Assembly: GCA_024277435.1 (NCBI GenBank)
Contig: JAJRVJ010000009.1
Location: 1,226 to 65,225 of the forward strand
Origin: Patescibacteria group bacterium
Lineage (GTDB): Bacteria; Patescibacteriota; Patescibacteriia; UBA9570
Direction of reading: 5' to 3'
Length of the DNA: 64,000 nt
In this document: one piece after another, positions 40,681-50,815 of the stretch
How positions within the stretch are numbered: the first letter of the stretch is position 1
How the letters are laid out: each line of letters begins with the position of its first letter
Notes under the pieces: model-generated
The model's database searches: none
What the model saw: only the letters and a program-made list of their open reading frames with translations
Told to the model about the DNA's origin: nothing
Program-made: the position numbers and the translations under genes

Positions 40681-42200
40681 ACCTTTGAACGTGAAGGAAT
40701 AATCTTACTAATATATGACGTGAACAACATCCGATCTTTTTTTGAAAAGATACCAATAACCAATCCAAGTAGAAGTATAAATACTCCAGCTAATAATAAT
40801 GCTAGCAAAACACCCCAAATAGATGATAACAACGATACACTATATCCCAATACAAAATATCCAACGCTCCCGATAATTAATAGCTTTACATAGATCATAA
40901 ACATCGATGTGTGCTGAACGCGTAACTTTCGCTCAATCATATATATATATATTGGTACAGGCCACTGAGCTATGAGTAATCCATACGCAGCGCCTTCAAT
41001 ATTAAATATTGGGATAAGAGTTGCTGTTAACGCTATATTAGAAATAACAATAGTGGCAATTACAGCAGCATTGGTCTTGGGTTTATCAAAACCAGCGAAA
41101 AAATAAAATGGAATTGCCGTAAGTGCATACAAACCATAACACACAACCAAAACCTGCATAATATACGCCGACTCAATAATATATGCATCACCCAACCAGT
41201 AACCAATAAATGGCTCTGCGTATACGATAAGTGGAATAACCATAGCCAATATAAACGTATAGGTAAATTTAGAAGCGCGTATATACAATTCCCGCAGTGC
41301 ATCTAGTCTCTGCTGTGTAAATAGTTCTGTTGATAGCGGAAATAATACATTATTGAGCGTTGCAATAAGTGCATGAATTTTCATAGCAATGGTCACTGGA
41401 ATTGCATAAAATGTTACAACAGTTGATCCTAAAAATGCGCTAATTAAAAATTTATCAAATTGAAATAACATATTACCAGCTATTGTTGCAATAAACGTAA
41501 AGCCCGCAAAATTCATTATTTTTTTCACAAGTCGCTTGTCCCAAGCAAGAACAAATGTGAAGTCAGGTAGTAATCGCTTTAATAAAATAATGTATCCAAT
41601 CAATAATGTAAGAGATGTAGCAGCGTTTACTAATAAAATAGCCAACAAACTTGGATGCAACCATAAAATGAACACAAGCACCGCCGTAAGGGCCATTGCG
41701 TTTATCAATACAACTATTGTATTAAGATGATATTTTTGCAAAGCTCGTGGAACCGCGCTCAATACACCATTGGCTAAATTAAAAAGTAAACTACCCACAG
41801 CCAACAGTAAACCGATTTTACTCACGTCACGTAGCTCTTCTGGAATCTTCAGTAAAGTAATGATAGAATCAGCGCCTAGCATCACAACAACGAATAACAC
41901 CACACCTAAACCAAGAAAGATGATGAGATTCGTACTAATAACTTTATTAACCTGTCTTGTGTCACCACGCGTATATGCTTCTGAAATATACCGTACAGAA
42001 GCTGATGCTAATCCAAGATCCAGAAACGATAATATGCCAATAACCGATAATAGCAGTGTATACACACCATATTGATCATCACCTAATGCACTCAATATAA
42101 ATGGAGTGATAGCAAAAGCTATCACAATAGACCAGCTAAACGCTAGTACATTACTCAGTGCATTAGTGATGGTTTGATGGGCCTTTTTCATAACAAACAT
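40677..42200 (-). CDS. Wzx-like MOP-superfamily polysaccharide flippase
   Basis: About 12-14 TM segments and a PST-family pattern. I chose the start at the Met preceding KKAHQTITNALSNVL; the ORF extends to 42272. Confidence 0.7.
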   Translation of the reverse strand: MFVMKKAHQTITNALSNVLAFSWSIVIAFAITPFILSALGDDQYGVYTLLLSVIGILSFLDLGLASASVRYISEAYTRGDTRQVNKVISTNLIIFLGLGVVLFVVVMLGADSIITLLKIPEELRDVSKIGLLLAVGSLLFNLANGVLSAVPRALQKYHLNTIVVLINAMALTAVLVFILWLHPSLLAILLVNAATSLTLLIGYIILLKRLLPDFTFVLAWDKRLVKKIMNFAGFTFIATIAGNMLFQFDKFLISAFLGSTVVTFYAIPVTIAMKIHALIATLNNVLFPLSTELFTQQRLDALRELYIRASKFTYTFILAMVIPLIVYAEPFIGYWLGDAYIIESAYIMQVLVVCYGLYALTAIPFYFFAGFDKPKTNAAVIATIVISNIALTATLIPIFNIEGAAYGLLIAQWPVPIYIYMIERKLRVQHTSMFMIYVKLLIIGSVGYFVLGYSVSLLSSIWGVLLALLLAGVFILLLGLVIGIFSKKDRMLFTSYISKIIPSRSKV

Positions 42201-42266
42201 AGTGAGTGTAGCGGCAATATACACTACAGTCAACGTACATATAAAGCTATGTGCTATACTGGGACT

Positions 42267-43397
42267 ATGCAATATTTAGCTATCCTTGGCAACGTACCAG
42301 AACTATCAGCCCTCGAGCTCAATCGCATGGGCATTACCGCTGAATGGCGAGGAGGTAGCGTAGCGGAATTATCCAACAAAATCGATATTAATCAGCTTGG
42401 TGGCACTGTTAAAATTGCTGAATATATAACTACTATTAAGCGCGATCTTGAAGGCTTAAAAGAACTATACGCACTCTTAGAGCAAGCCAGTGGGGATGGA
42501 AAAAAATTATGCTTTGGATTTAGCGTATATGCAGCCGATGCTGCAGTTACAGAAAAAGTGGAGAAACACTATAATAAAAAATTACGTGCTATTGGCATCG
42601 ATTGGAAAAAAAAGTTGAAAGAAGTGCATAATGGAGCAGTTCGTTATGTTGAAAGCAAAGAACCTGCTCTCTCTTCGGTAATTGTACAAAAAGAAAAATT
42701 ACTCAACCATAATACAGATTTCATCATTGCAATTCGTAAAAAAGAAATCATCCTGGGCCGCACTATAGAAGTACAAGATTATAAAGGTTTTTCTAAAAGA
42801 GACTTTGGTCGACCAGCGCGTGATCACCAATCTGGTATGTTACCACCAAAAGTAGCCCGTATGATGATGAATATCGCCCAACCAACCGGCGCAGGTTCAT
42901 TCGTTGATGCCTTTTGTGGATCGGGCACCGTGTTACAAGAAGCAACATTGCAAGGCCATAAAAATATCATTGGTGTTGATATCTCGAAGAAAGCCATTAC
43001 TGATACTAAAGAGAATTTCGAATGGATGAAACTGCCAGTACCAGAGCTCCATGTGGCTGATAGTCAAAAAATAAATGGGTTACTACCAAAGAATTCTGTG
43101 GAGTGTGTGGTAGGAGAAGGCTATCTTGGACCAACACGTCCTAAAAAAACCGAAAAGGTGCGTAGACAACTTATTAAACTCTACGATAATACAATTACCG
43201 CATTTAATGATATTTTAATTCCGGGCGGAAGAATTGTGTTAGCTGTTCCAGCATGGAAACGTTACGACGATATACTTACATTACCAATCAATGAAACCTT
43301 ACAGCGCTTGGGGATGAAGGAATTTCACGAACCGATTTTCTATGGCCGCGAACACGCACACGTATTGCGACACATTCACTTCTTAGAAAAGAAATAA
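42267..43397 (+). CDS. Putative RNA methyltransferase (N2-G/N6-A class, THUMP-like N-terminal domain)
   Basis: MTase motif I FVDAFCGSGTVLQEA. The internal Met at 42267 avoids the overlap with the Wzx-like gene; the ORF track starts it at 42174. Confidence 0.55.
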   Translation: MQYLAILGNVPELSALELNRMGITAEWRGGSVAELSNKIDINQLGGTVKIAEYITTIKRDLEGLKELYALLEQASGDGKKLCFGFSVYAADAAVTEKVEKHYNKKLRAIGIDWKKKLKEVHNGAVRYVESKEPALSSVIVQKEKLLNHNTDFIIAIRKKEIILGRTIEVQDYKGFSKRDFGRPARDHQSGMLPPKVARMMMNIAQPTGAGSFVDAFCGSGTVLQEATLQGHKNIIGVDISKKAITDTKENFEWMKLPVPELHVADSQKINGLLPKNSVECVVGEGYLGPTRPKKTEKVRRQLIKLYDNTITAFNDILIPGGRIVLAVPAWKRYDDILTLPINETLQRLGMKEFHEPIFYGREHAHVLRHIHFLEKK

Positions 43398-44597: not shown

Positions 44598-45845
44598 CTA
44601 TTCGAACTCTGGATAGAGTGGGAATTTATTTGTTAGCTCAACTACTTCTTTAGCAATCTCTTGCTTAATTGCTTCATTTTCATGGTTCTTCAATGCCTTA
44701 AGAATCATTGCAGCAATTTGCTTCATTTCAGGCTCCTTCATACCACGCGTGGTTACCGGAGGCGTACCTAAACGAATACCAGATGGATCCATTGGCTTGC
44801 GTGGATCATCAGGAATTGTATTCATATTTAATGTAATACGCACTTCATCAAGAACCGTTTGTGCAATTTTACCGGTAATACCAAGTGGGGTAACATCAGC
44901 CAGGATAAGATGATTTTCGGTAATTTCACCAAACATCACTTTTAAGCCGCCAGCTTTTAGTTCATCACACAATACCTTAGCGTTCACTTTTACTTGCTTA
45001 GCGTACTCTTTGAATTCAGGCTTCATGGCTTCACCAAGTGCAACGGCCAGCGCAGCAATTTGATGATCATGTGGACCACCTTGTAAGCCTGGAAAAACCG
45101 CTTTATCAATAGCCTTCGCATGTTCTTTCTTACACATAATCATTCCACCGCGCGGACCACGTAATGTTTTATGCGTAGTAGTAGAAACCACGTCAAAAAT
45201 TGGTACTGGATTATTCAATTCACCTGCAGCTATTAATCCAGCAATATGTGCAATATCTGCCATGGTTAAAGCACCAACTTCATCAGCAATTTCTTTAAAC
45301 TTGGTGTAATCCAAATCACGAGAGTAGGCAGAAAATCCAGCCACAATAAGTTTTGGCTTATGCTCTAATGCCATAGCTCGTAAATTATCAAAATCAATCA
45401 AACCATCTTCACCAGTTTTATAACGAACAAAGTTGAAAATCTTCGCCATAAATGTAACTGGATGACCATGGGTAAGATGTCCGCCATGTGATAAATCCAT
45501 ACCAAGCACAGTGTCACCTGGCTCTAGCAATGCTGCATATACAGCAAGGTTAGCTGGCGCACCAGATAATGGCTGTACATTTACATGCTCCGCGTTAAAT
45601 AATTCTTTTGCCCGTTCAATGGCCATAGTTTCAATTTGATCCACCCATTCCTGACCACCATAATACCGTTTTCCAGAATATCCTTCAGAATACTTATTCG
45701 TCATGATGCTTCCTAGAGCCTCCAATACAGGTACAGAGACGAAATTCTCCGATGGAATAAGCTCAATATTGTTACGTTGACGTTGGAGCTCGCCCTTGAT
45801 AAACTGGGCAATCTCTGGATCTTGTTTAGTGAGATATTCGAGCAT
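44598..45845 (-). CDS. glyA: Serine hydroxymethyltransferase
   Basis: 415 aa, PLP-Lys region TTTHKTLRGPRGG. Confidence 0.93.
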   Translation of the reverse strand: MLEYLTKQDPEIAQFIKGELQRQRNNIELIPSENFVSVPVLEALGSIMTNKYSEGYSGKRYYGGQEWVDQIETMAIERAKELFNAEHVNVQPLSGAPANLAVYAALLEPGDTVLGMDLSHGGHLTHGHPVTFMAKIFNFVRYKTGEDGLIDFDNLRAMALEHKPKLIVAGFSAYSRDLDYTKFKEIADEVGALTMADIAHIAGLIAAGELNNPVPIFDVVSTTTHKTLRGPRGGMIMCKKEHAKAIDKAVFPGLQGGPHDHQIAALAVALGEAMKPEFKEYAKQVKVNAKVLCDELKAGGLKVMFGEITENHLILADVTPLGITGKIAQTVLDEVRITLNMNTIPDDPRKPMDPSGIRLGTPPVTTRGMKEPEMKQIAAMILKALKNHENEAIKQEIAKEVVELTNKFPLYPEFE

Positions 45846-45965
45846 TGACTTAAGATTTAAGTATTAATTAAGGTTGAATTGTAGCACATATTATCAATAA
45901 TGTCATGAAACAATTTTGTGTTCTTCCAACCCATACATAGTATCTTATAGTAATAGTCAGAATAT

Positions 45966-46304
45966 ATGAAAAAAATGTACTTTTCTTTTGGATAGCAAAA
46001 AGCGCAGGCACAAGCATTCATTCAGTATTAGAGAAATATGATTATCCCTTATTAAAGTTACCGAAGGATTATAAACAATTTACTAATAGCGGATTTATTA
46101 CATCGCTTTTCCCTTCGCTACAACAAAAAACTTACCTTTCTTCCACTGCCAAAATTGGGTAATTTCAATGCGATTGACCTAAGTCAAGCTAACCCACAAG
46201 TTGATTGGCTCACCAACGATAATGGAAATTTACTCGTTGACTTTGTTGGCAAAATGGAAACATTATCCGCTAATGCAAATACTGCATTTGATTACACATT
46301 TTAG
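45966..46304 (+). pseudogene. Relic of a sulfotransferase-family gene (N- and C-terminal fragments, frameshifted, middle deleted)
   Basis: MKKMYFSF/WIAKSAGTSIHSVLEKY matches the fIHIPKTGGTS motif. ...NGNLLVDFVGKMETLSANANTAFDYTF matches the C-terminal vDFvGr.E.L motif. Stops and shifts lie between them. Confidence 0.45.
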
Positions 46305-46384
46305 GAAATTTAGGTGTGAATACCGGGCTTACTTGAATCAGAGAAACCAACACACTCCCCGATGCAATCACATCTCTACGTTAA

Positions 46385-46885
46385 CTATCGACGCGGTACT
46401 CGATCTATCGATCGCCCAACTTCGACTAATCGTATTTGATAAGCTGCTAATATTTCTGTTCTTAGTTTAGAAAATATTTGATTCACACGTTCCGCCTCTT
46501 GATTTAAAGTAACTTGCCCAGATTCTGGAATAACTCCATCGTGCTTTATTTTCATTTCTGTATATAATGCATGTAGATATGCAGCCAATAATTCCGCTAC
46601 CGACCCAATTTCTTCTTGATCCCGTACTATGGTAAAAACCTCATCCCACATCGAATCATCATTTACTTTCTCAATAAGATTCTCTTCAATATAATCATCA
46701 ACTGCCATTTGATCTCCCCCATCATAAAAAAGATATGGCGAAACGTAATTATAAAAATATTCCTCCAGTTTTTCTCTTGCTAAGACAATTAATGCTCTTC
46801 GTAATAATTGAGCTTCCTCATGTAAAAAATTATCACCATCATCTACTGGTAATGTTTGTTCTAATTCCTGAAGAAATTGAGACAT
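46385..46885 (-). CDS. Acidic hypothetical protein translationally coupled to Elp3
   Basis: 166 aa and rich in D/E. Its start is 1 nt after the Elp3 stop. Confidence 0.5.
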   Translation of the reverse strand: MSQFLQELEQTLPVDDGDNFLHEEAQLLRRALIVLAREKLEEYFYNYVSPYLFYDGGDQMAVDDYIEENLIEKVNDDSMWDEVFTIVRDQEEIGSVAELLAAYLHALYTEMKIKHDGVIPESGQVTLNQEAERVNQIFSKLRTEILAAYQIRLVEVGRSIDRVPRR

Positions 46886-46886
46886 A

Positions 46887-48497
46887 CTAGAGTGATTTTA
46901 CCATATACTCTTCGGCTAATTCATAGCCAAGCTTCTCGTAATATTTTCGTACACCAACACCGGCAATTACTGCCGATTTTTTGAATCCTTTTTCTTTTGC
47001 CACCATCTCGGCTTCAGCCATAAGTTTTCTACCCAACCCACGATGCTGCGCTGCCTTACTTACTTTATCTGATACTGGAATTAATTGGCCATATACATGG
47101 AGTTCTCGAATAATCGCCGCATCCTGAAGCTCTTCATACCAGTGATGATCTATAGATTGTAACCGTAAACGCACAAAACCAAATAGCTTTGTTCTATCTG
47201 CATTTTCATACGAAATAAAATATTCTGTTCCATCAGATGCTTCATACTCATCAATATATAATTGCGCTTCTTCAATACCAGAAATATCATCGCGTGGCTC
47301 ACGACAACGGATACAATCACACTGTGCGCCCTTATCTTGCATCATCTGGCGTAAATTAGTTACTGTATTTCCGCCCTCAATAGAATTTTCAGGAATATCA
47401 CGGACTAATCTTTCAATTCGACAATAATAAGGAACCTCATTTTTAATATCAATTAATAAATCTGTCAACGTTTGCTCTGAATATGATTTATAACGCCCTG
47501 CTTTCCAATGGCGATACAGTGGTGCAGATTTTACTACTACACAAGGATAAATTTTAATGTGATCGGGCTGATACGCTGGATCTGAAAAAATAGTTTTAAT
47601 ATCATGCAAATCAGTTTCAGGTATTGCCCCCGGTAAGTTTTGCATCATGTGATAGGTAATTTTAATCCCGGCTTCTTTCAATAACTTAGTTGCCTGTTGC
47701 ACACCCTCATTTGTTTGATCACGCAGCGTTAAAGCTAATACATGCTTATTTAATGTTTGCACACCAATTTGCATACGGGTAGCACCAAACCAGCGCAACC
47801 GCTTTACTTCTGCCTCATCAATATGATCTGGTCGAGTTTCTAACGTACAACCAATCACTCTATATTTTGCTATTTCATTTAAACGCTTGGCCTCTTCAAG
47901 TGTTTCTGCACCATCCGGCCGCTCATCTAAATTAAAGCCATCGTAACAACGCTTCATGAACCATTCTTGATAATCATTTGGATACGCTGTCCAAGTTCCT
48001 CCCAATACAATTAATTCACACTTTTCTGGAATGTGTCCATTACGCTCCAATGCCTCAATGCGTTTTGTTACTTGTTCATACGGATCAAACTTTAAACGCA
48101 ACGCTCGCATTGCGCCCGGCTCGGTATCAATATAACTCTTCGGCATATTCGATTCGGTTGGACAGTACGTACAACGACCTGGACACTGATACGGTTTCGT
48201 AAGAACTGTAATAGGTGCAATACCAGATAGTGTACGCACACTCCGCACCTGAAGTATTCTCATAAACGCAAAATCCTCTTCCATGTCACCTTGCTCAATC
48301 ATAGTGCGATACTCTTTAAGGATATCTGCGTTCGTAGGCATTTGAATTTTATACTCCTTACATATCTCCGCTTTTACTCGGCGCAATTCCAAAGCATCGC
48401 CAACGCTGCGGTTGATGGATTTCGTAATAATTTCACGCACTGCCTCTACTGGTGACGTTACTTTATTATCTAATTTTGTTACAGGCCCTGTATTCAT
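46887..48497 (-). CDS. elp3: Elp3-like radical-SAM + GNAT protein (tRNA wobble-uridine carboxymethyl/acetyl-transferase homolog)
   Basis: Radical-SAM CPGRCTYC (CxxxCxxC), a TIM-barrel region, and a C-terminal GNAT with HRGLGRKLMAEAE. The length of 536 aa matches Elp3. Confidence 0.85.
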   Translation of the reverse strand: MNTGPVTKLDNKVTSPVEAVREIITKSINRSVGDALELRRVKAEICKEYKIQMPTNADILKEYRTMIEQGDMEEDFAFMRILQVRSVRTLSGIAPITVLTKPYQCPGRCTYCPTESNMPKSYIDTEPGAMRALRLKFDPYEQVTKRIEALERNGHIPEKCELIVLGGTWTAYPNDYQEWFMKRCYDGFNLDERPDGAETLEEAKRLNEIAKYRVIGCTLETRPDHIDEAEVKRLRWFGATRMQIGVQTLNKHVLALTLRDQTNEGVQQATKLLKEAGIKITYHMMQNLPGAIPETDLHDIKTIFSDPAYQPDHIKIYPCVVVKSAPLYRHWKAGRYKSYSEQTLTDLLIDIKNEVPYYCRIERLVRDIPENSIEGGNTVTNLRQMMQDKGAQCDCIRCREPRDDISGIEEAQLYIDEYEASDGTEYFISYENADRTKLFGFVRLRLQSIDHHWYEELQDAAIIRELHVYGQLIPVSDKVSKAAQHRGLGRKLMAEAEMVAKEKGFKKSAVIAGVGVRKYYEKLGYELAEEYMVKSL

Positions 48498-48556
48498 AAG
48501 CTACGGAAGGATACTGTAAATACACGAATAAATCAAGATACCCTTATACTACGGCT

Positions 48557-49064
48557 CTATGTAAGCTGCATTAACTGAATAGCATCTCCTATACGAGGAT
48601 TATAATATAGATAGTAATGAAAATCCGCCAATATAAATTCACTAGCACTCATCTGGCCAACAAATTCATAACCCTCCATTGGCGAAGTGAATCCATGCTG
48701 CACAGGCAACGGATACAGTCCAAAAAATACTCCTCTCCCCCTACCTTTAGATCCTGCATTGCAGTATATACTAAACTCTGCCAATTATTGTATTCAGCAT
48801 TATTCGTATCAATTACAGGTTGCGGTGGAACAGCAGCTGGCCAATCATAATCCGTAAATGCACATACCCCTTTGGCAACTTATCCGCGTATCCTGCAATT
48901 AGCTCCTCAAATGGAGCAATCTCTTTTACTGAAAAAGCAATGTCAGCAACCTTACCGTTTGTGTAAGAAATTTCTACCTCCTCAAGATCTGGCGCCTCCC
49001 AATATAATAACGGTAGCCGACCGCTCCACGCTGGACTTACTAATTGCAAATCAATCCAACACAA
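48557..49064 (-). pseudogene. Degenerate coding remnant (two out-of-frame minus-strand ORFs, possibly a GyrI-like/unknown small-protein gene)
   Basis: ORFs 49064-48813 and 48784-48557 are separated by a stop and shift. The protein-like composition is on the minus strand only. Confidence 0.25.
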
Positions 49065-49252
49065 TGGCGCAATCTTATCTTATAAGTGCTCAAATCCCTA
49101 TTGAAACACATCATTCCATTCAGGAAATAAGGTTGAGTGTTCGGCTCGTCTTTAAATGAATATGTAGTAAACATTTTCATAATGGTTGTACATGTTCTCT
49201 AACATTATCTATACTACCACATATACGGCCCACTAAAAGATGGCTAAGAATT

Positions 49253-50002
49253 ATGAATAAAGAATTTGCCGACAATCTCATCAAACAAATGGAGCAAGAT
49301 TACGATGCGATTGCTGATCATTTCTCGCAAACTCGCCAGGCGCCCTGGCCTGAATTTGATATTATTGAAAAGCTCGTTAATCCAGTAGCTTCAATTCATG
49401 AATTGAAGCTACTGGATATTGGCTGTGGCTCGGGTAGATTATCAGAAATTCAAAAGAACATTGCCGGATGCACATACACTGGCATTGATCTTTCTAATGA
49501 ACTTTTAGAATTAGGACGCAAACAATATCCCGATGTAAATTTTATACATGGCTCAATGCTAGAACTACCATTTAAAGATAACTCCTTTGATTTCATTACA
49601 GCTATAGCAAGCCTGCAACACATCCCTTCTCGGCAGTATCAAATTCAAGCCTTGCAAGAAATGGCTCGCGTTGCAAAAACTAGTGCCACATTATTTATGA
49701 CCAACTGGAATCTCTATCAAGATGTAATGCCAGATTACTTCACTTCAGCTAAAAAAGCTTTTGGAGATGAGTGGGAAGAAGGTGACACCCTCGTGCCATG
49801 GAAAGATAAGTATGGAAAAATTCAGGCCACTCGGTACTATCACAGCTTTAAGGAAAAAGAGATGGCTGAACTACTCGAAACTAGTGGCTGGAACATTCAA
49901 GAGCAATACTATATGGCACGCAGTAAACGCACCAACAGTGCAAAAGGATTCAATCTTGTAACTATCGCAAAAAACCATAAAAACAAGATAGATAGTACGT
50001 AG
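49253..50002 (+). CDS. Class I SAM-dependent methyltransferase (type 11)
   Basis: LLDIGCGSGRLS and DNSFDFITAIASLQHIP. Confidence 0.75.
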   Translation: MNKEFADNLIKQMEQDYDAIADHFSQTRQAPWPEFDIIEKLVNPVASIHELKLLDIGCGSGRLSEIQKNIAGCTYTGIDLSNELLELGRKQYPDVNFIHGSMLELPFKDNSFDFITAIASLQHIPSRQYQIQALQEMARVAKTSATLFMTNWNLYQDVMPDYFTSAKKAFGDEWEEGDTLVPWKDKYGKIQATRYYHSFKEKEMAELLETSGWNIQEQYYMARSKRTNSAKGFNLVTIAKNHKNKIDST

Positions 50003-50062: not shown

Positions 50063-50815
50063 ATGCATGAAAATCTATTACTCAAAGCTGGCTTAACTGA
50101 TAACCAAGTACGTATTTACGATCTCTTACTCCGTAAAGGGCCAGCCACCGCCGCTGAGCTAACCGAAGTCACTAAGATGCAACGCGGAAGCGTATATTAT
50201 GTTCTTGATAGTTTAATAGCAGAAGAACTCATTGAAAAAACCAAGCGAGGTGCAAAAACACTCTTTCAAGCGGCACATCCAACTGTATTAATGGAGTATA
50301 TTAATCGCAAAAAAAAATACAATTGAGCAAGTTGAAAACTCATTAAGTACAGCCATGCCAAGCATGATAGAAAACTATAAATTATCTAACAAGCTACCAG
50401 GTGTATATGCTTTAGAGGGTAAGAAGGTATTCAGCGAGCATTCAACGAATTACTAAAAGATAACTTACCAATTTTAGCTATTGAGGATACAGGTATTTTA
50501 TACGATTTAATGCCAGCATATGAAGAAGAATTCATGAGGCAAACAGTTGCCATGAAACATAAAAATCGCTCCGTCATTCCCTCAAGTAATCAACGCGTAT
50601 TCAAAGATGAAGAAAAAGCATGGGAGTATCGAAGTATCGATGTTGAAAAATTTCCATTTAAAATGGATATCACCATAACAGATAAACGTGTAATTATTAG
50701 TTCGGTTCAAGAAAAAACTGCCATTGGTGTAGTAATTATTCATGATGAAATTATCAGAAACTTCAAAATATTATTTGAAGTATTATGGTCTATTGGAAAA
50801 CCAGACGCAGTATAA
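50063..50815 (+). pseudogene. TrmB-family regulator paralog, disrupted by two frameshifts (first at an A9 homopolymer, 50315-50323)
   Basis: HTH ORF 50063-50326. Shifting frames gives ...IEQVENSLSTAMPSMIENYKLSNKLPGVYALEGKKVFSEH... and then IQRAFNELLKDNLPILAIEDTG..., both aligning with the 11519 TrmB protein. Confidence 0.6.

What the first reader, a model, noticed from the sequence alone, without database searches (positions are those of the whole stretch)
46385..48497. Bacterial Elp3 (radical-SAM + GNAT) with a tightly coupled acidic partner ORF
Elp3 is the catalytic elongator subunit in eukaryotes and archaea. Stand-alone bacterial homologs are rare, Dehalococcoides being the characterised example. 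Here a full-length copy (CPGRCTYC cluster, C-terminal GNAT) is followed 1 nt later by a 166-aa D/E-rich protein with no obvious family. That is a candidate partner, possibly a tRNA-handling or acetyl-CoA-delivery factor.
Basis: partly seen in the sequence, partly recalled or inferred. Interest (0 to 1): 0.6.

Follow-up and report, generated by a model that had tools for sequence, protein, structure and literature searches.

The report
Bacterial Elp3 plus clade-specific neighbour gene
This is an ordinary, full-length tRNA-modifying Elp3 enzyme of a Patescibacteria (Kerfeldbacteria-like) genome. The small acidic gene fused to its end is real, but it belongs to a tiny, fast-evolving family that many close relatives lack. 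The neighbour that is truly conserved is a Trm9-like methyltransferase on the other side of elp3.

Summary
A 536-aa Elp3 (46887..48497, minus strand) matches TIGR01211 end to end at 533.7 bits. A 166-aa acidic ORF (46385..46885, pI 4.4) starts 1 nt after its stop.

Bacterial Elp3 is not rare: thousands of homologues exist, mainly in Patescibacteria and Chloroflexota, and many are already annotated as Elp3.

ORF166 matches nothing in Pfam, NCBIfam, PADLOC, PHROGs or PDB. A profile built from ORFs in the same slot of relatives still detects it (E 7e-5; best of 5000 shuffles 11.4 bits against 20.0). This defines a small family of acidic, all-helical proteins of about 150-200 aa with a basic tail. 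Every located copy lies between elp3 and glyA, in 0-3 tandem copies.

The family is present in 11 of 17 related loci. Three family-less loci join elp3 directly to glyA, and three carry unrelated genes such as toxin-antitoxin pairs and lipoproteins. Family dN/dS is 0.15-0.24 against 0.02-0.03 for Elp3 and SHMT. It is therefore a functional but dispensable clade-specific gene, not an obligate Elp3 partner.

A divergent Trm9-like methyltransferase (49253..50002) neighbours elp3 in 72 of 87 loci, which predicts mcm5U synthesis.

The parts
46887..48497 (-). elp3: a 536-aa radical-SAM/GNAT tRNA U34 carboxymethyl (cm5U) synthase, full length, with an archaeal-type N-terminal extension
   Evidence: TIGR01211 at 533.7 bits, full length. 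Pfam domains. Best solved relatives are MinElp3 6ia8 (E 1.9e-112, aligned from residue 35) and DmcElp3 5l7j (E 4e-110, aligned only from residue 87).
48231..48446 (-). Elp3 N-terminal domain (residues 18-89). This extension is absent from Dehalococcoides Elp3.
   Evidence: Pfam ELP3_N at 25.9 bits, just under the 27-bit cut-off. DmcElp3 aligns only from residue 87. Lin et al. 2019 describe this extension as a tRNA-binding element missing in DmcElp3 (PMC6367351).
48162..48185 (-). Radical-SAM [4Fe-4S] cysteine motif CPGRCTYC (CX3CX2C), residues 105-112
   Evidence: The bacterial Elp3s in the fetched loci use CX3CX2C; the archaeal ones use CX4 or CX5 spacing.
47304..47321 (-). CDCIRC cysteine motif between the radical-SAM and GNAT domains, residues 393-398
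   Evidence: It aligns with CRCIRC of MinElp3. CxCxxC is present in 64 of 73 distinct Elp3s.
46920..47204 (-). GNAT (KAT) domain with the acetyl-CoA motif QHRGLG at 47031..47048
   Evidence: Pfam Acetyltransf_7 and Acetyltransf_1. Motif position. [QR]HxGxG is present in 69 of 73 Elp3s.
46385..46885 (-). ORF166: a member of a small clade-restricted family of acidic all-helical proteins with a short basic C-terminal tail. It starts 1 nt after the elp3 stop.
   Evidence: Homologue P0122 at E 1e-22, in the same position in L045. An independent profile hits it at E 7e-5, with a shuffle control. Iteration converges on 19 ORFs, all in the same slot. AF2 model: 8 helices, pLDDT 73.8, pTM 0.73. No fold or family match.
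45846..46384 (.). 539-nt stretch without an ORF between ORF166 and glyA. It is the remainder of the variable elp3-glyA slot.
   Evidence: Stops in all six frames, no family-HMM hit and no blastn or tblastx similarity to any fetched locus. A promoter-like site at 45906..45878 (-) lies in front of glyA, but such sites are no more frequent than in shuffles.
44598..45845 (-). glyA (serine hydroxymethyltransferase), the conserved downstream border of the slot
   Evidence: 78-85% identical and syntenic in relatives.
49253..50002 (+). Trm9-like class I SAM methyltransferase, divergent from elp3. It is the conserved neighbour of bacterial elp3 and is predicted to methylate cm5U to mcm5U.
   Evidence: Best PDB hit is Trm9 5cm2_Z (E 2.9e-12 with the single sequence; E 2.2e-30 over the full length with profile A3). 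Motifs TRQAPWP, LDIGCGSG, LQHIPS, NWNL, LVPW, RYYH and GFNLV cover the residues critical in ScTrm9 (PMC4678810). It lies next to elp3 in 72 of 87 loci.
48498..49252 (.). 755-nt spacer between the divergent elp3 and methyltransferase genes. It is unusually long compared with relatives.
   Evidence: In most relatives the two start codons are within about 60 nt of each other or overlap. The spacer has no similarity to any fetched locus. The 75-aa and 83-aa TTG-start ORFs inside it have no family hits.

Best explanation
The locus is the wobble-uridine modification module of a Kerfeldbacteria-like Patescibacterium.

Elp3 is a stand-alone enzyme. From what is known of the family, it makes cm5U34 from acetyl-CoA and SAM. 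The divergently transcribed Trm9-like methyltransferase most likely methylates that product to mcm5U. These two genes form the conserved functional pair.

ORF166 is a real gene, very probably co-transcribed with elp3 and translationally coupled to it. It belongs to a small family confined to this clade and to this chromosomal slot. Family members are acidic, all-helical, cytoplasmic proteins of about 150-200 aa with a short, disordered basic tail. The family has grown by tandem duplication to 0-3 copies, was probably lost several times, and evolves fast under relaxed purifying selection.

It is therefore an optional, lineage-specific accessory protein that Elp3 does not need. Its position next to elp3 is best explained by where the family arose and by vertical inheritance inside a variable elp3-glyA interval.

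My best mechanistic guess is that it is a non-enzymatic binding protein. Its acidic helical body would dock onto a basic partner surface and its basic tail would contact RNA or an acidic surface. The target is unknown.

Shown: gene identities, synteny statistics, the selection regime and the absence of known relatives. Inferred: co-transcription, the chemistry of Elp3 and Trm9, and everything about what ORF166 binds.
For: Elp3 identity.

ORF166 is a real, conserved gene:
- A 38%-identical homologue overlaps the elp3 stop in L045.
- dN/dS of family orthologues is 0.15-0.24, against 0.02-0.03 for Elp3 and SHMT in the same genome pairs.

Family definition:
- An HMM built without ORF166 hits it at 20.0 bits, E 7e-5 among 1631 ORFs. 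The best of 5000 shuffles scores 11.4 bits.
- Iteration converges on 19 ORFs, all between elp3 and glyA on the elp3 strand.
- Two further members located independently, P0126 and P0128, lie in the same slot.
- Two AF2 models give the same order of eight helices and a disordered basic tail.

Dispensability and variability:
- The family is present in 11 of 17 loci at 0-3 copies.
- elp3 is directly followed by glyA in L004, L005/L103 and L047.
- Family-bearing and family-less genomes interleave on an Elp3 tree.
- The slot also holds lipoproteins, FN3 and BNR proteins, KilA-N, GNAT and toxin-antitoxin pairs.

Rarity: only 2 hits among 1.84e9 representatives and 8 among 5.8e9 proteins.

Tight junctions are common in this genome: 17 of 37 same-strand pairs.

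Conserved partner: the Trm9-like methyltransferase neighbours elp3 in 72 of 87 loci. Profile A3 hits Trm9 at E 2.2e-30 over the full length and includes the catalytic motifs.
Against: - In 5 of the 11 family-bearing loci a family copy is joined to elp3 by a stop/start overlap or a 1-nt spacer (ATGA, TAATG, TAGtATG). That arrangement fits stoichiometric co-expression with Elp3, so a facultative functional link cannot be excluded.
- Every copy that could be located is in this one slot. This could reflect function rather than history.
- The link between the ORF166/P0122 pair and the other subfamilies is remote. hhalign between the thin subfamily alignments gave only 1-2% probability, and the reciprocal two-sequence HMM finds nothing.
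- No complete genome of the clade was examined, so copies elsewhere in those genomes cannot be ruled out.
- No experiment or expression data were available.
Confidence: 0.6

Rival explanations
1. The ORF166 family is a genuine, facultative accessory factor of Elp3. It could act as a regulator or chaperone whose acidic helical body occupies the basic tRNA-binding cleft or N-terminal extension of Elp3, or as an adaptor that hands over tRNA through its basic tail.
For: - Stop/start overlap or a 1-nt spacer with elp3 in 5 loci.
- Every located member lies downstream of elp3 on the same strand.
- The body is acidic (net -4 to -24) and the tail basic.
- Purifying selection acts on the family.
Against: - The family is absent from 6 of 17 close relatives with an intact, 72-83% identical Elp3.
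- In 6 of the 11 family-bearing loci another gene separates it from elp3, while 9 of 11 have a copy 93 nt or less from glyA.
- Copy number varies from 0 to 3.
- Members are 11-38% identical to one another while Elp3 stays at 74-83%, which is not how partners of a conserved enzyme usually behave.
- The family was not found beside elp3 in the more distant Patescibacteria, Anaerolineales or archaeal loci fetched.
- Archaeal and bacterial Elp3 are active on their own in vitro (PMC6367351; PMC7663514).
Confidence: 0.17
2. The family is conflict-related cargo of a variable genomic islet. It could be an immunity, antitoxin-like or anti-defence protein whose fast divergence and tandem duplication reflect an arms race. 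It would be unrelated to tRNA modification.
For: - Patchy presence and tandem divergent paralogues.
- The same slot, and the elp3-methyltransferase spacer, carry toxin-antitoxin pairs: PhdYeFM/PIN in L102, RHH plus RelE-like pairs in L011, L027 and L101, and a KilA-N gene in L011.
- The proteins are small and acidic.
Against: - No consistent PADLOC, PHROGs or Pfam hit; each library family is matched by a single member only.
- No cognate toxin or effector is consistently adjacent; in the window the neighbours are elp3 and glyA.
- No relative was found in viral contigs.
- dN/dS of 0.15-0.24 shows no gene-wide positive selection.
- The fixed chromosomal position argues against mobility.
Confidence: 0.13
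3. The family is functionally tied to glyA/SHMT or to the downstream glyA-ychF unit rather than to elp3.
For: In 9 of 11 loci the last family copy ends 28-93 nt upstream of glyA on the same strand.
Against: - In the window a 539-nt ORF-free stretch separates ORF166 from glyA, and in L045 a 235-aa ORF does.
- A promoter-like site lies directly upstream of glyA (weak evidence).
- glyA in family-less relatives is equally conserved.
Confidence: 0.05
4. ORF166 is a chance ORF or a decaying pseudogene with no function.
For: It has no match in public family libraries and almost no homologues.
Against: - A homologue at E 1e-22 in the same position.
- Family dN/dS well below 1.
- Confident helical models, pTM 0.73 and 0.80.
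- An intact reading frame with a coupled start.
Confidence: 0.02

Closest known systems
Stand-alone archaeal Elp3 (Methanocaldococcus infernus MinElp3, PDB 6ia8/6iaz/6iad)
   Same: - Same domain order: N-terminal extension, radical-SAM, Cys-rich linker, GNAT/KAT.
- Alignment over residues 35-535 at E 1.9e-112.
- The acetyl-CoA motif and the CxCxxC motif are conserved.
- No other Elongator subunits are needed.
   Different: - The host is bacterial (Patescibacteria).
- The cluster motif spacing is CX3CX2C rather than CX4CX2C.
- Activity was not tested here.
Dehalococcoides mccartyi Elp3 (DmcElp3, PDB 5l7j/5l7l/6ia6)
   Same: It is a bacterial stand-alone Elp3 with the same catalytic core (E 4e-110).
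   Different: - DmcElp3 lacks the N-terminal extension; it aligns only from residue 87 of the window protein (PMC6367351).
- The window protein therefore resembles the archaeal and eukaryotic form.
- The DmcElp3 neighbourhood was not examined here.
Trm9 (the tRNA cm5U to mcm5U methyltransferase of the eukaryotic Trm9-Trm112 complex, PDB 5cm2 chain Z)
   Same: - The elp3-adjacent methyltransferase family aligns with Trm9 over its full length (E 2.2e-30).
- The alignment includes the regions outside the Rossmann core that generic class I methyltransferases do not match.
- The counterparts of ScTrm9 R29, D72, H116, W145, W168, R241, Y243 and probably N271 are retained.
   Different: - No Trm112-like activator was identified here; this was not searched exhaustively.
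- H115 is replaced by Q in the window protein.
- No NCBIfam model names the family; all hits are generic and below their cut-offs.
- Activity is untested.
Eukaryotic Elongator accessory proteins (Elp1, Elp2, Elp4-6, Kti11-13)
   Same: The only shared element is the idea of a protein that assists Elp3.
   Different: - ORF166 shows no sequence or fold similarity to any of them.
- Pfam and PDB profile searches and Foldseek against the PDB return nothing.
Lineage-specific orphan families in variable intervals of Patescibacteria genomes
   Same: - Restricted to one clade.
- No known domains.
- Fast evolution and copy-number variation.
- Co-resident toxin-antitoxin and surface-protein genes.
   Different: It is unusually faithful to one chromosomal slot, and it is often stop/start-coupled to a conserved housekeeping gene.

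Membership tests
Elp3 (TIGR01211; tRNA U34 cm5 radical-SAM/GNAT enzyme) | Full-length match to the family model above the curated cut-off | tested here: met
   533.7 bits against a cut-off of 350, covering model positions 2-522 of 522.
Elp3 (TIGR01211; tRNA U34 cm5 radical-SAM/GNAT enzyme) | Radical-SAM domain with a three-cysteine [4Fe-4S] motif | tested here: met
   Pfam PF04055 and PF16199. CPGRCTYC at residues 105-112. The spacing is CX3CX2C, as in the other bacterial Elp3s.
Elp3 (TIGR01211; tRNA U34 cm5 radical-SAM/GNAT enzyme) | C-terminal GNAT/KAT domain with an acetyl-CoA binding motif (Q/RxxGxG) | tested here: met
   PF13508 and PF00583 above their cut-offs. QHRGLG at residues 484-489.
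Elp3 (TIGR01211; tRNA U34 cm5 radical-SAM/GNAT enzyme) | Not better explained by another radical-SAM family (HemN/HemW, MnmL/YtqA) | tested here: met
   TIGR01212 scores 68 bits (cut-off 180). HemN-like models score 43 bits or less, against cut-offs of 205 or more.
Elp3 (TIGR01211; tRNA U34 cm5 radical-SAM/GNAT enzyme) | Catalyses cm5U34 formation on tRNA | not testable with these tools
   This needs an in vitro assay or tRNA nucleoside mass spectrometry.
Trm9-type tRNA (cm5U34) methyltransferase (for the gene at 49253..50002) | Full-length similarity to Trm9, beyond the generic Rossmann core | tested here: met
   Profile A3 against the PDB puts 5cm2_Z top at E 2.2e-30, covering profile positions 26-233 and chain residues 3-198. 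Most other methyltransferases match only about positions 40-150.
Trm9-type tRNA (cm5U34) methyltransferase (for the gene at 49253..50002) | Conservation of the residues shown to be critical in ScTrm9 (R29, D72, H116, W145, W168, R241, Y243, N271) | tested here: met
   R28, D55, W152, W183 and R194 are invariant in A3, and Y195 is nearly invariant. The motifs are placed and the residue list comes from PMC4678810. The N271 counterpart (GFNLV) rests on a manual alignment. The H115 counterpart is Q.
Trm9-type tRNA (cm5U34) methyltransferase (for the gene at 49253..50002) | Conserved genomic association with the enzyme that makes its substrate (Elp3) | tested here: met
   It lies within 1.2 kb of the elp3 start in 72 of 87 loci that have upstream DNA, almost always divergently oriented. 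Some of these loci are redundant.
Trm9-type tRNA (cm5U34) methyltransferase (for the gene at 49253..50002) | Dependence on a Trm112-like activator, and mcm5U formation | not tested
   No search for a Trm112 homologue was made in the window, and the activity needs experiments.
Obligate Elp3 partner or subunit (claimed for ORF166) | Co-occurrence with elp3 across relatives | tested here: not met
   It is present in 11 of 17 closely related loci. It was found in none of the more distant Patescibacteria, Anaerolineales or archaeal loci fetched.
Obligate Elp3 partner or subunit (claimed for ORF166) | Evolutionary rate comparable with its partner | tested here: not met
   dN/dS is 0.15-0.24 against 0.02-0.03. 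Identity within the family is 11-38%, while Elp3 is 74-83% identical.
Obligate Elp3 partner or subunit (claimed for ORF166) | Physical interaction with Elp3 | not testable with these tools
   The structure tool folds single chains of window proteins only, so a complex could not be predicted.
Known anti-phage defence, toxin-antitoxin or phage protein families (considered for ORF166) | A consistent profile match across family members | tested here: not met
   In PADLOC, PHROGs and Pfam, every library family is hit by only 1 of 15 members, at E >= 1e-4.

The most novel reading that the evidence does not exclude
The ORF166 family would be a clade-specific, facultative modulator of the bacterial Elp3/Trm9 wobble-uridine pathway. 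It could be an acidic tRNA-mimicking regulator, or an adaptor that docks on the basic tRNA-binding surface of Elp3. It would be translated in fixed ratio with Elp3 through stop/start coupling. That would make it the first accessory protein described for a prokaryotic stand-alone Elp3, with a fold that has no neighbour in the PDB.
Probability: 0.12. Interest if true: 0.6.

Novelty: new member of a known kind. Interest (0 to 1): 0.3.

Why it matters
As stated, the finding is mostly ordinary. Elp3 is common and already annotated in Patescibacteria, and the coupled ORF is an optional clade-specific gene.

Two by-products have some value.

1. Much of the Elp3 literature has treated bacterial Elp3 as a Dehalococcoides curiosity, with no evidence for xcm5U derivatives in bacteria (PMC7663514). 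The near-universal head-to-head pairing of elp3 with a Trm9-like methyltransferase, seen here across Patescibacteria and Anaerolineales, gives a testable prediction. These bacteria should make mcm5U, as eukaryotes and archaea do, by a two-gene module that could be expressed in E. coli.

2. The ORF166 family is a cleanly delimited example of a fast-evolving orphan family fixed in one chromosomal slot. Confident helical models of two members find no neighbour in the PDB. That makes it a modest target for structural or interaction studies.

Tried and rejected
- Searched ORF166 alone. The k-mer-indexed search of 5.8e9 proteins found only itself. The exhaustive search of 1.84e9 representatives found one homologue.
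- Exact-sequence look-ups of the window proteins found no record, so the source contig could not be named.
- tblastn of ORF166 and P0122 against 45 loci hit only L045. This first suggested that the ORF is not conserved. Reading the slot ORFs by eye and building profiles corrected that.
- hhalign between the thin subfamily alignments linked C-D (91%) and D-E (70%), but linked A (ORF166/P0122) to the others at only 1-2%. One earlier hhalign script timed out.
- A reciprocal HMM built from the two-sequence A cluster finds no other subfamily.
- Tested whether the 539-nt and 755-nt gaps are decayed family copies or cargo. The family HMM, tblastn, blastn and tblastx all gave nothing. One search was run at too loose a threshold and printed only noise.
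- Family libraries (PADLOC, PHROGs, Pfam) and a PDB profile search gave only scattered single-member noise.
- Viral contigs: the alignment was too divergent to make search patterns, and the single-protein scan found nothing.
- The promoter/terminator scan found no more sites than in shuffles, so operon limits are not established.
No complex prediction was possible.
- Literature searches combining Elp3 with Patescibacteria, CPR or Chloroflexi plus Trm9 returned nothing relevant.
- tRNA and Rfam scans of the window were empty.
Full report
**1. What is in the sequence**

The window is about 38% G+C. It has no tRNA or Rfam hits.

At the reported coordinates there are two minus-strand ORFs: 46887..48497 (536 aa) and 46385..46885 (166 aa). 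The TAG stop of the first and the ATG of the second are separated by one base (TAGtATG).

Evidence that the 536-aa protein is Elp3:
- It matches NCBIfam TIGR01211 (Elp3) end to end at 533.7 bits against a cut-off of 350. HemN-like and MnmL/YtqA models fall far below their cut-offs.
- Pfam finds Radical_SAM, Radical_SAM_C and GNAT above threshold, and ELP3_N just below.
- The cysteine motif CPGRCTYC (residues 105-112), the CDCIRC motif (393-398) and the acetyl-CoA motif QHRGLG (484-489) are all present.
- Its best solved relatives are the archaeal MinElp3 (6ia8, E 1.9e-112, aligned from residue 35) and Dehalococcoides DmcElp3 (5l7j, E 4e-110, aligned only from residue 87).

So, unlike DmcElp3, this protein carries the N-terminal extension that Lin et al. 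2019 showed to contribute tRNA binding (PMC6367351).

The 166-aa protein has 33 D+E against 16 K+R, pI 4.43 and net charge -17. It has no Pfam or NCBIfam match.

**2. Is bacterial Elp3 rare?**

No. A search with the window Elp3 returned 6978 proteins at E <= 1e-30 among the 8000 candidates scored. Many are named Elp3 by NCBI or JGI and come from Patescibacteria, Kerfeldbacteria and similar groups.

Genome and metagenome scans returned 40 and 54 loci. The closest (68-83% identity) are labelled Candidatus Kerfeldbacteria or Patescibacteria. A second bacterial group is Anaerolineales at 43-45%, and archaea follow at 39-45%.

The literature has moved in the same direction. [quoted passage not shown] A 2026 paper writes 'numerous bacteria' (PMC13315578).

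**3. Is the downstream ORF conserved?**

Taken alone, ORF166 looks like an orphan. The indexed search of 5.8e9 proteins found only itself. The exhaustive HMMER search of 1.84e9 representatives found one homologue, P0122 (169 aa, 38% identity, E 1e-22). That homologue lies on a 4.1-kb contig, and its ATG overlaps the stop of an Elp3 that is 79% identical to the window's (L045).

In other close relatives the gene order is fixed as methyltransferase <-> elp3 ... glyA - ychF, but the interval between elp3 and glyA varies from 21 nt to 4.3 kb.

Many ORFs in that interval share size (150-200 aa), strand and a recognisable motif order with ORF166:
- an N-terminal L..Y..L(T)..QQ..hR..L;
- a central hF...S...L;
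- an 'FP' motif;
- a basic C-terminus.

Pairwise phmmer grouped them into subfamilies, and hhalign linked some of these (C-D 91%, D-E 70%).

An HMM built only from subfamilies C, D and E, without ORF166, hit ORF166 at 20.0 bits. That is E 7e-5 among all 1631 ORFs of 80 aa or more in 104 sequences, and there was no hit outside the slot. In a control with 5000 composition-matched shuffles of ORF166, the best score was 11.4 bits.

Iteration converged in three rounds on 19 ORFs (16 distinct). All lie between elp3 and glyA on the elp3 strand (alignment A1).

A profile search of 5.8e9 proteins with A1 returned only 8 proteins. The two new ones that could be placed, P0126 and P0128, are again in the elp3-glyA slot.

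ORF166 therefore very probably belongs to a tiny family confined to this clade and this slot. The ORF166-P0122 pairing is solid. The link to the other subfamilies is remote but is statistically and positionally supported.

**4. Distribution and dynamics**

Among the 17 distinct loci in which the whole elp3-glyA interval is visible, 11 carry the family:

| Locus | Copies |
|---|---|
| window | 1 |
| L045 | 1 |
| L002/3 | 1 |
| L007 | 1 |
| L032 | 1 |
| L009 | 2 |
| L027 | 2 |
| L008/46 | 3 |
| L101 | 3 |
| L104 | 3 |
| L105 | 1 intact, plus 1 split into 93 and 76 aa |

Six loci lack the family. L004/6, L005/103 and L047 have elp3 followed by glyA within 21-127 nt. L001, L011/48 and L102 carry other genes.

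Two partly visible loci, L010 and L100, show no copy.

On a neighbour-joining Elp3 tree, family-bearing and family-less genomes interleave in three subclades. No bootstrap was run. The pattern is most simply explained by an ancestral family with repeated losses.

Other residents of the slot are unrelated to one another:
- lipoproteins and secreted proteins (FN3-like, BNR-like);
- a KilA-N protein;
- a GNAT-like and a methyltransferase-like protein;
- an arginase-fold protein;
- toxin-antitoxin pairs (PhdYeFM/PIN; RHH plus RelE-like).

The interval is therefore a small plasticity zone.

A family copy is joined to elp3 by a stop/start overlap or a 1-nt spacer in 5 of the 11 loci: window TAGtATG, L045 ATGA, L008 ATGA, L009 TAATG and L105 ATGA. 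In 9 of the 11 loci the last copy ends 28-93 nt before glyA. The family is thus attached to glyA about as much as to elp3.

Tight junctions are not distinctive in this genome. Of 37 same-strand neighbouring ORF pairs, 17 are 3 nt or less apart. Shine-Dalgarno-like motifs are nearly absent, at 4 of 38 genes.

**5. Selection and structure**

Three orthologous pairs between two pairs of related genomes gave a usable family dN/dS:

| Gene | Genome pair | dN/dS |
|---|---|---|
| Family copy 1 | L101/L104 | 0.24 |
| Family copy 2 | L101/L104 | 0.15 |
| Family copy | L007/L032 | 0.18 |
| Elp3 | L101/L104 | 0.025 |
| Elp3 (C-terminal part) | L007/L032 | 0.030 |
| SHMT | L101/L104 | 0.021 |
| SHMT | L007/L032 | 0.026 |

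A third L101/L104 family pair is 99.4% identical with dS = 0, so it gave no ratio.

The proteins are therefore functional, but about seven-fold less constrained than their neighbours. There is no gene-wide signature of positive selection.

Family members have an acidic body (net -4 to -24) and a basic last 20 residues (0 to +6).

AlphaFold2 gives an eight-helix model for ORF166 (pLDDT 73.8, pTM 0.73). For P0124, a member of another subfamily, it gives pLDDT 86.5 and pTM 0.80. Both models have the same order of helices and a disordered C-terminal tail.

Nothing recognisable matches either the models or the family:
- Foldseek against the PDB (both models) and against BFVD (the ORF166 model) finds nothing better than E of about 0.3, with TM 0.32 or less.
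- PADLOC, PHROGs and Pfam scans of all 15 aligned members gave only single-member chance hits.
- A PDB profile search and a viral-contig scan were negative.

**6. The conserved neighbour**

The gene divergent from elp3 (49253..50002, 249 aa) is a class I SAM methyltransferase. A homologue lies within 1.2 kb of the elp3 start, almost always head to head, in 72 of the 87 loci that have enough upstream DNA. These loci span Elp3 identities from 39% to 83%: Patescibacteria, Anaerolineales and some DPANN-type archaea. Some of the loci are redundant.

Its best solved relative is Trm9 of the Yarrowia Trm9-Trm112 complex (5cm2_Z; E 2.9e-12). A profile of 14 elp3-adjacent homologues hits the same chain at E 2.2e-30 over the full length. 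Other methyltransferases mostly match only the Rossmann core.

The counterparts of the residues whose mutation inactivates yeast Trm9 are conserved. Those residues are R29, D72, H116, W145, W168, R241, Y243 and N271 (PMC4678810). The matching motifs in the window protein are TRQAPWP, LDIGCGSG, LQHIPS, NWNL, LVPW, RYYH and GFNLV. The N271 counterpart rests on a manual alignment.

NCBIfam has no specific model for this protein. I found no paper in the searchable library that describes this bacterial Elp3/Trm9 pairing. That library is incomplete, so no novelty claim is made.

The inference is that these bacteria make mcm5U34 by Elp3 followed by a Trm9-like enzyme.

In the window the two start codons are 755 nt apart, against 60 nt or less in most relatives. 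The spacer has no detectable homologue.

**7. Verdict**

The Elp3 call is right but unremarkable.

The 'tightly coupled acidic partner' is a real gene. It is more conserved than a single-sequence search suggests. However, it is optional, fast-evolving, variable in copy number and tied to a variable interval rather than specifically to Elp3. It fails the tests expected of an obligate partner.

A facultative link to Elp3 remains possible (about 0.12-0.17) because of the repeated stop/start coupling. It could be settled by complex prediction, pull-downs and tRNA mass spectrometry.

The more useful lead from this locus is the conserved Elp3/Trm9-like gene pair.

Noticed in passing
window 49253..50002 (+): A Trm9-like class I methyltransferase is transcribed divergently from elp3. 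The same head-to-head pairing occurs in 72 of 87 loci across Patescibacteria, Anaerolineales and some archaea, and the residues critical for Trm9 catalysis are conserved. This predicts a bacterial mcm5U pathway. NCBIfam has no specific model for the protein.
   Followed up: yes
window 48498..49252: The spacer between the divergent elp3 and methyltransferase genes is 755 nt, against 60 nt or less (or overlapping starts) in most relatives. It has no similarity to any fetched locus. Its only ORFs are TTG-start ORFs of 75 and 83 aa with no homologues. In L101 and L104 the equivalent spacer holds an RHH/RelE-like toxin-antitoxin pair, and in L004 a 108-aa ORF.
   Followed up: partly
window 45846..46384: A 539-nt stretch between ORF166 and glyA has stop codons in all frames. 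It shows no remnant of a second family copy and no similarity to relatives. A promoter-like site (45906..45878, minus strand) lies in front of glyA, but such sites are no more frequent than in shuffles.
   Followed up: partly
window 50063..50326 and 50510..50815 (+): An 87-aa ArsR/TrmB-like HTH ORF is followed, after a gap, by a 101-aa ORF with no family hit. Relative L100 has a single 249-aa TrmB-family gene next to the methyltransferase, so the window gene may be split or frameshifted.
   Followed up: no
window 48162..48185, and Elp3 genes of loci L001-L105: The bacterial Elp3s (Patescibacteria and Chloroflexota) use the canonical CX3CX2C radical-SAM motif (54 of 73 distinct sequences). The archaeal ones in the same set use CX4CX2C or CX5CX2C.
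   Followed up: yes
window, whole: Only 4 of 38 long ORFs have a Shine-Dalgarno-like motif upstream, and 17 of 37 same-strand neighbouring ORF pairs overlap or are 3 nt or less apart. The genome is compact and largely lacks SD motifs, so tight junctions carry little functional information.
   Followed up: yes
L105 409..928: A family copy directly after elp3 is split into two ORFs of 93 and 76 aa. The first carries the N-terminal motif and the second the FP/basic-tail motif. This is either a pseudogene or an assembly frameshift. An intact copy follows before glyA.
   Followed up: partly
window 42174..43397 (+): A TIGR01177/Trm14-like (UPF0020) methyltransferase lies downstream of ychF and is syntenic in L004 and L104. 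It is probably another RNA methyltransferase. All NCBIfam hits are below their cut-offs.
   Followed up: no
L016 6539..6811; L024 6719..6768: elp3 is directly followed by glyA in the more distant Magasanikbacteria-like loci too (Elp3 42-46% identical). The elp3-glyA adjacency is therefore older than the family that now fills the gap in the Kerfeldbacteria-like clade.
   Followed up: partly
L011 6650..8825; L027 6631..7186; L102 8559..9240: Toxin-antitoxin pairs (RHH plus RelE/ParE-like; PhdYeFM plus PIN) and a KilA-N gene occupy the same elp3-glyA interval in relatives. This marks the interval as a small hotspot for accessory genes.
   Followed up: partly
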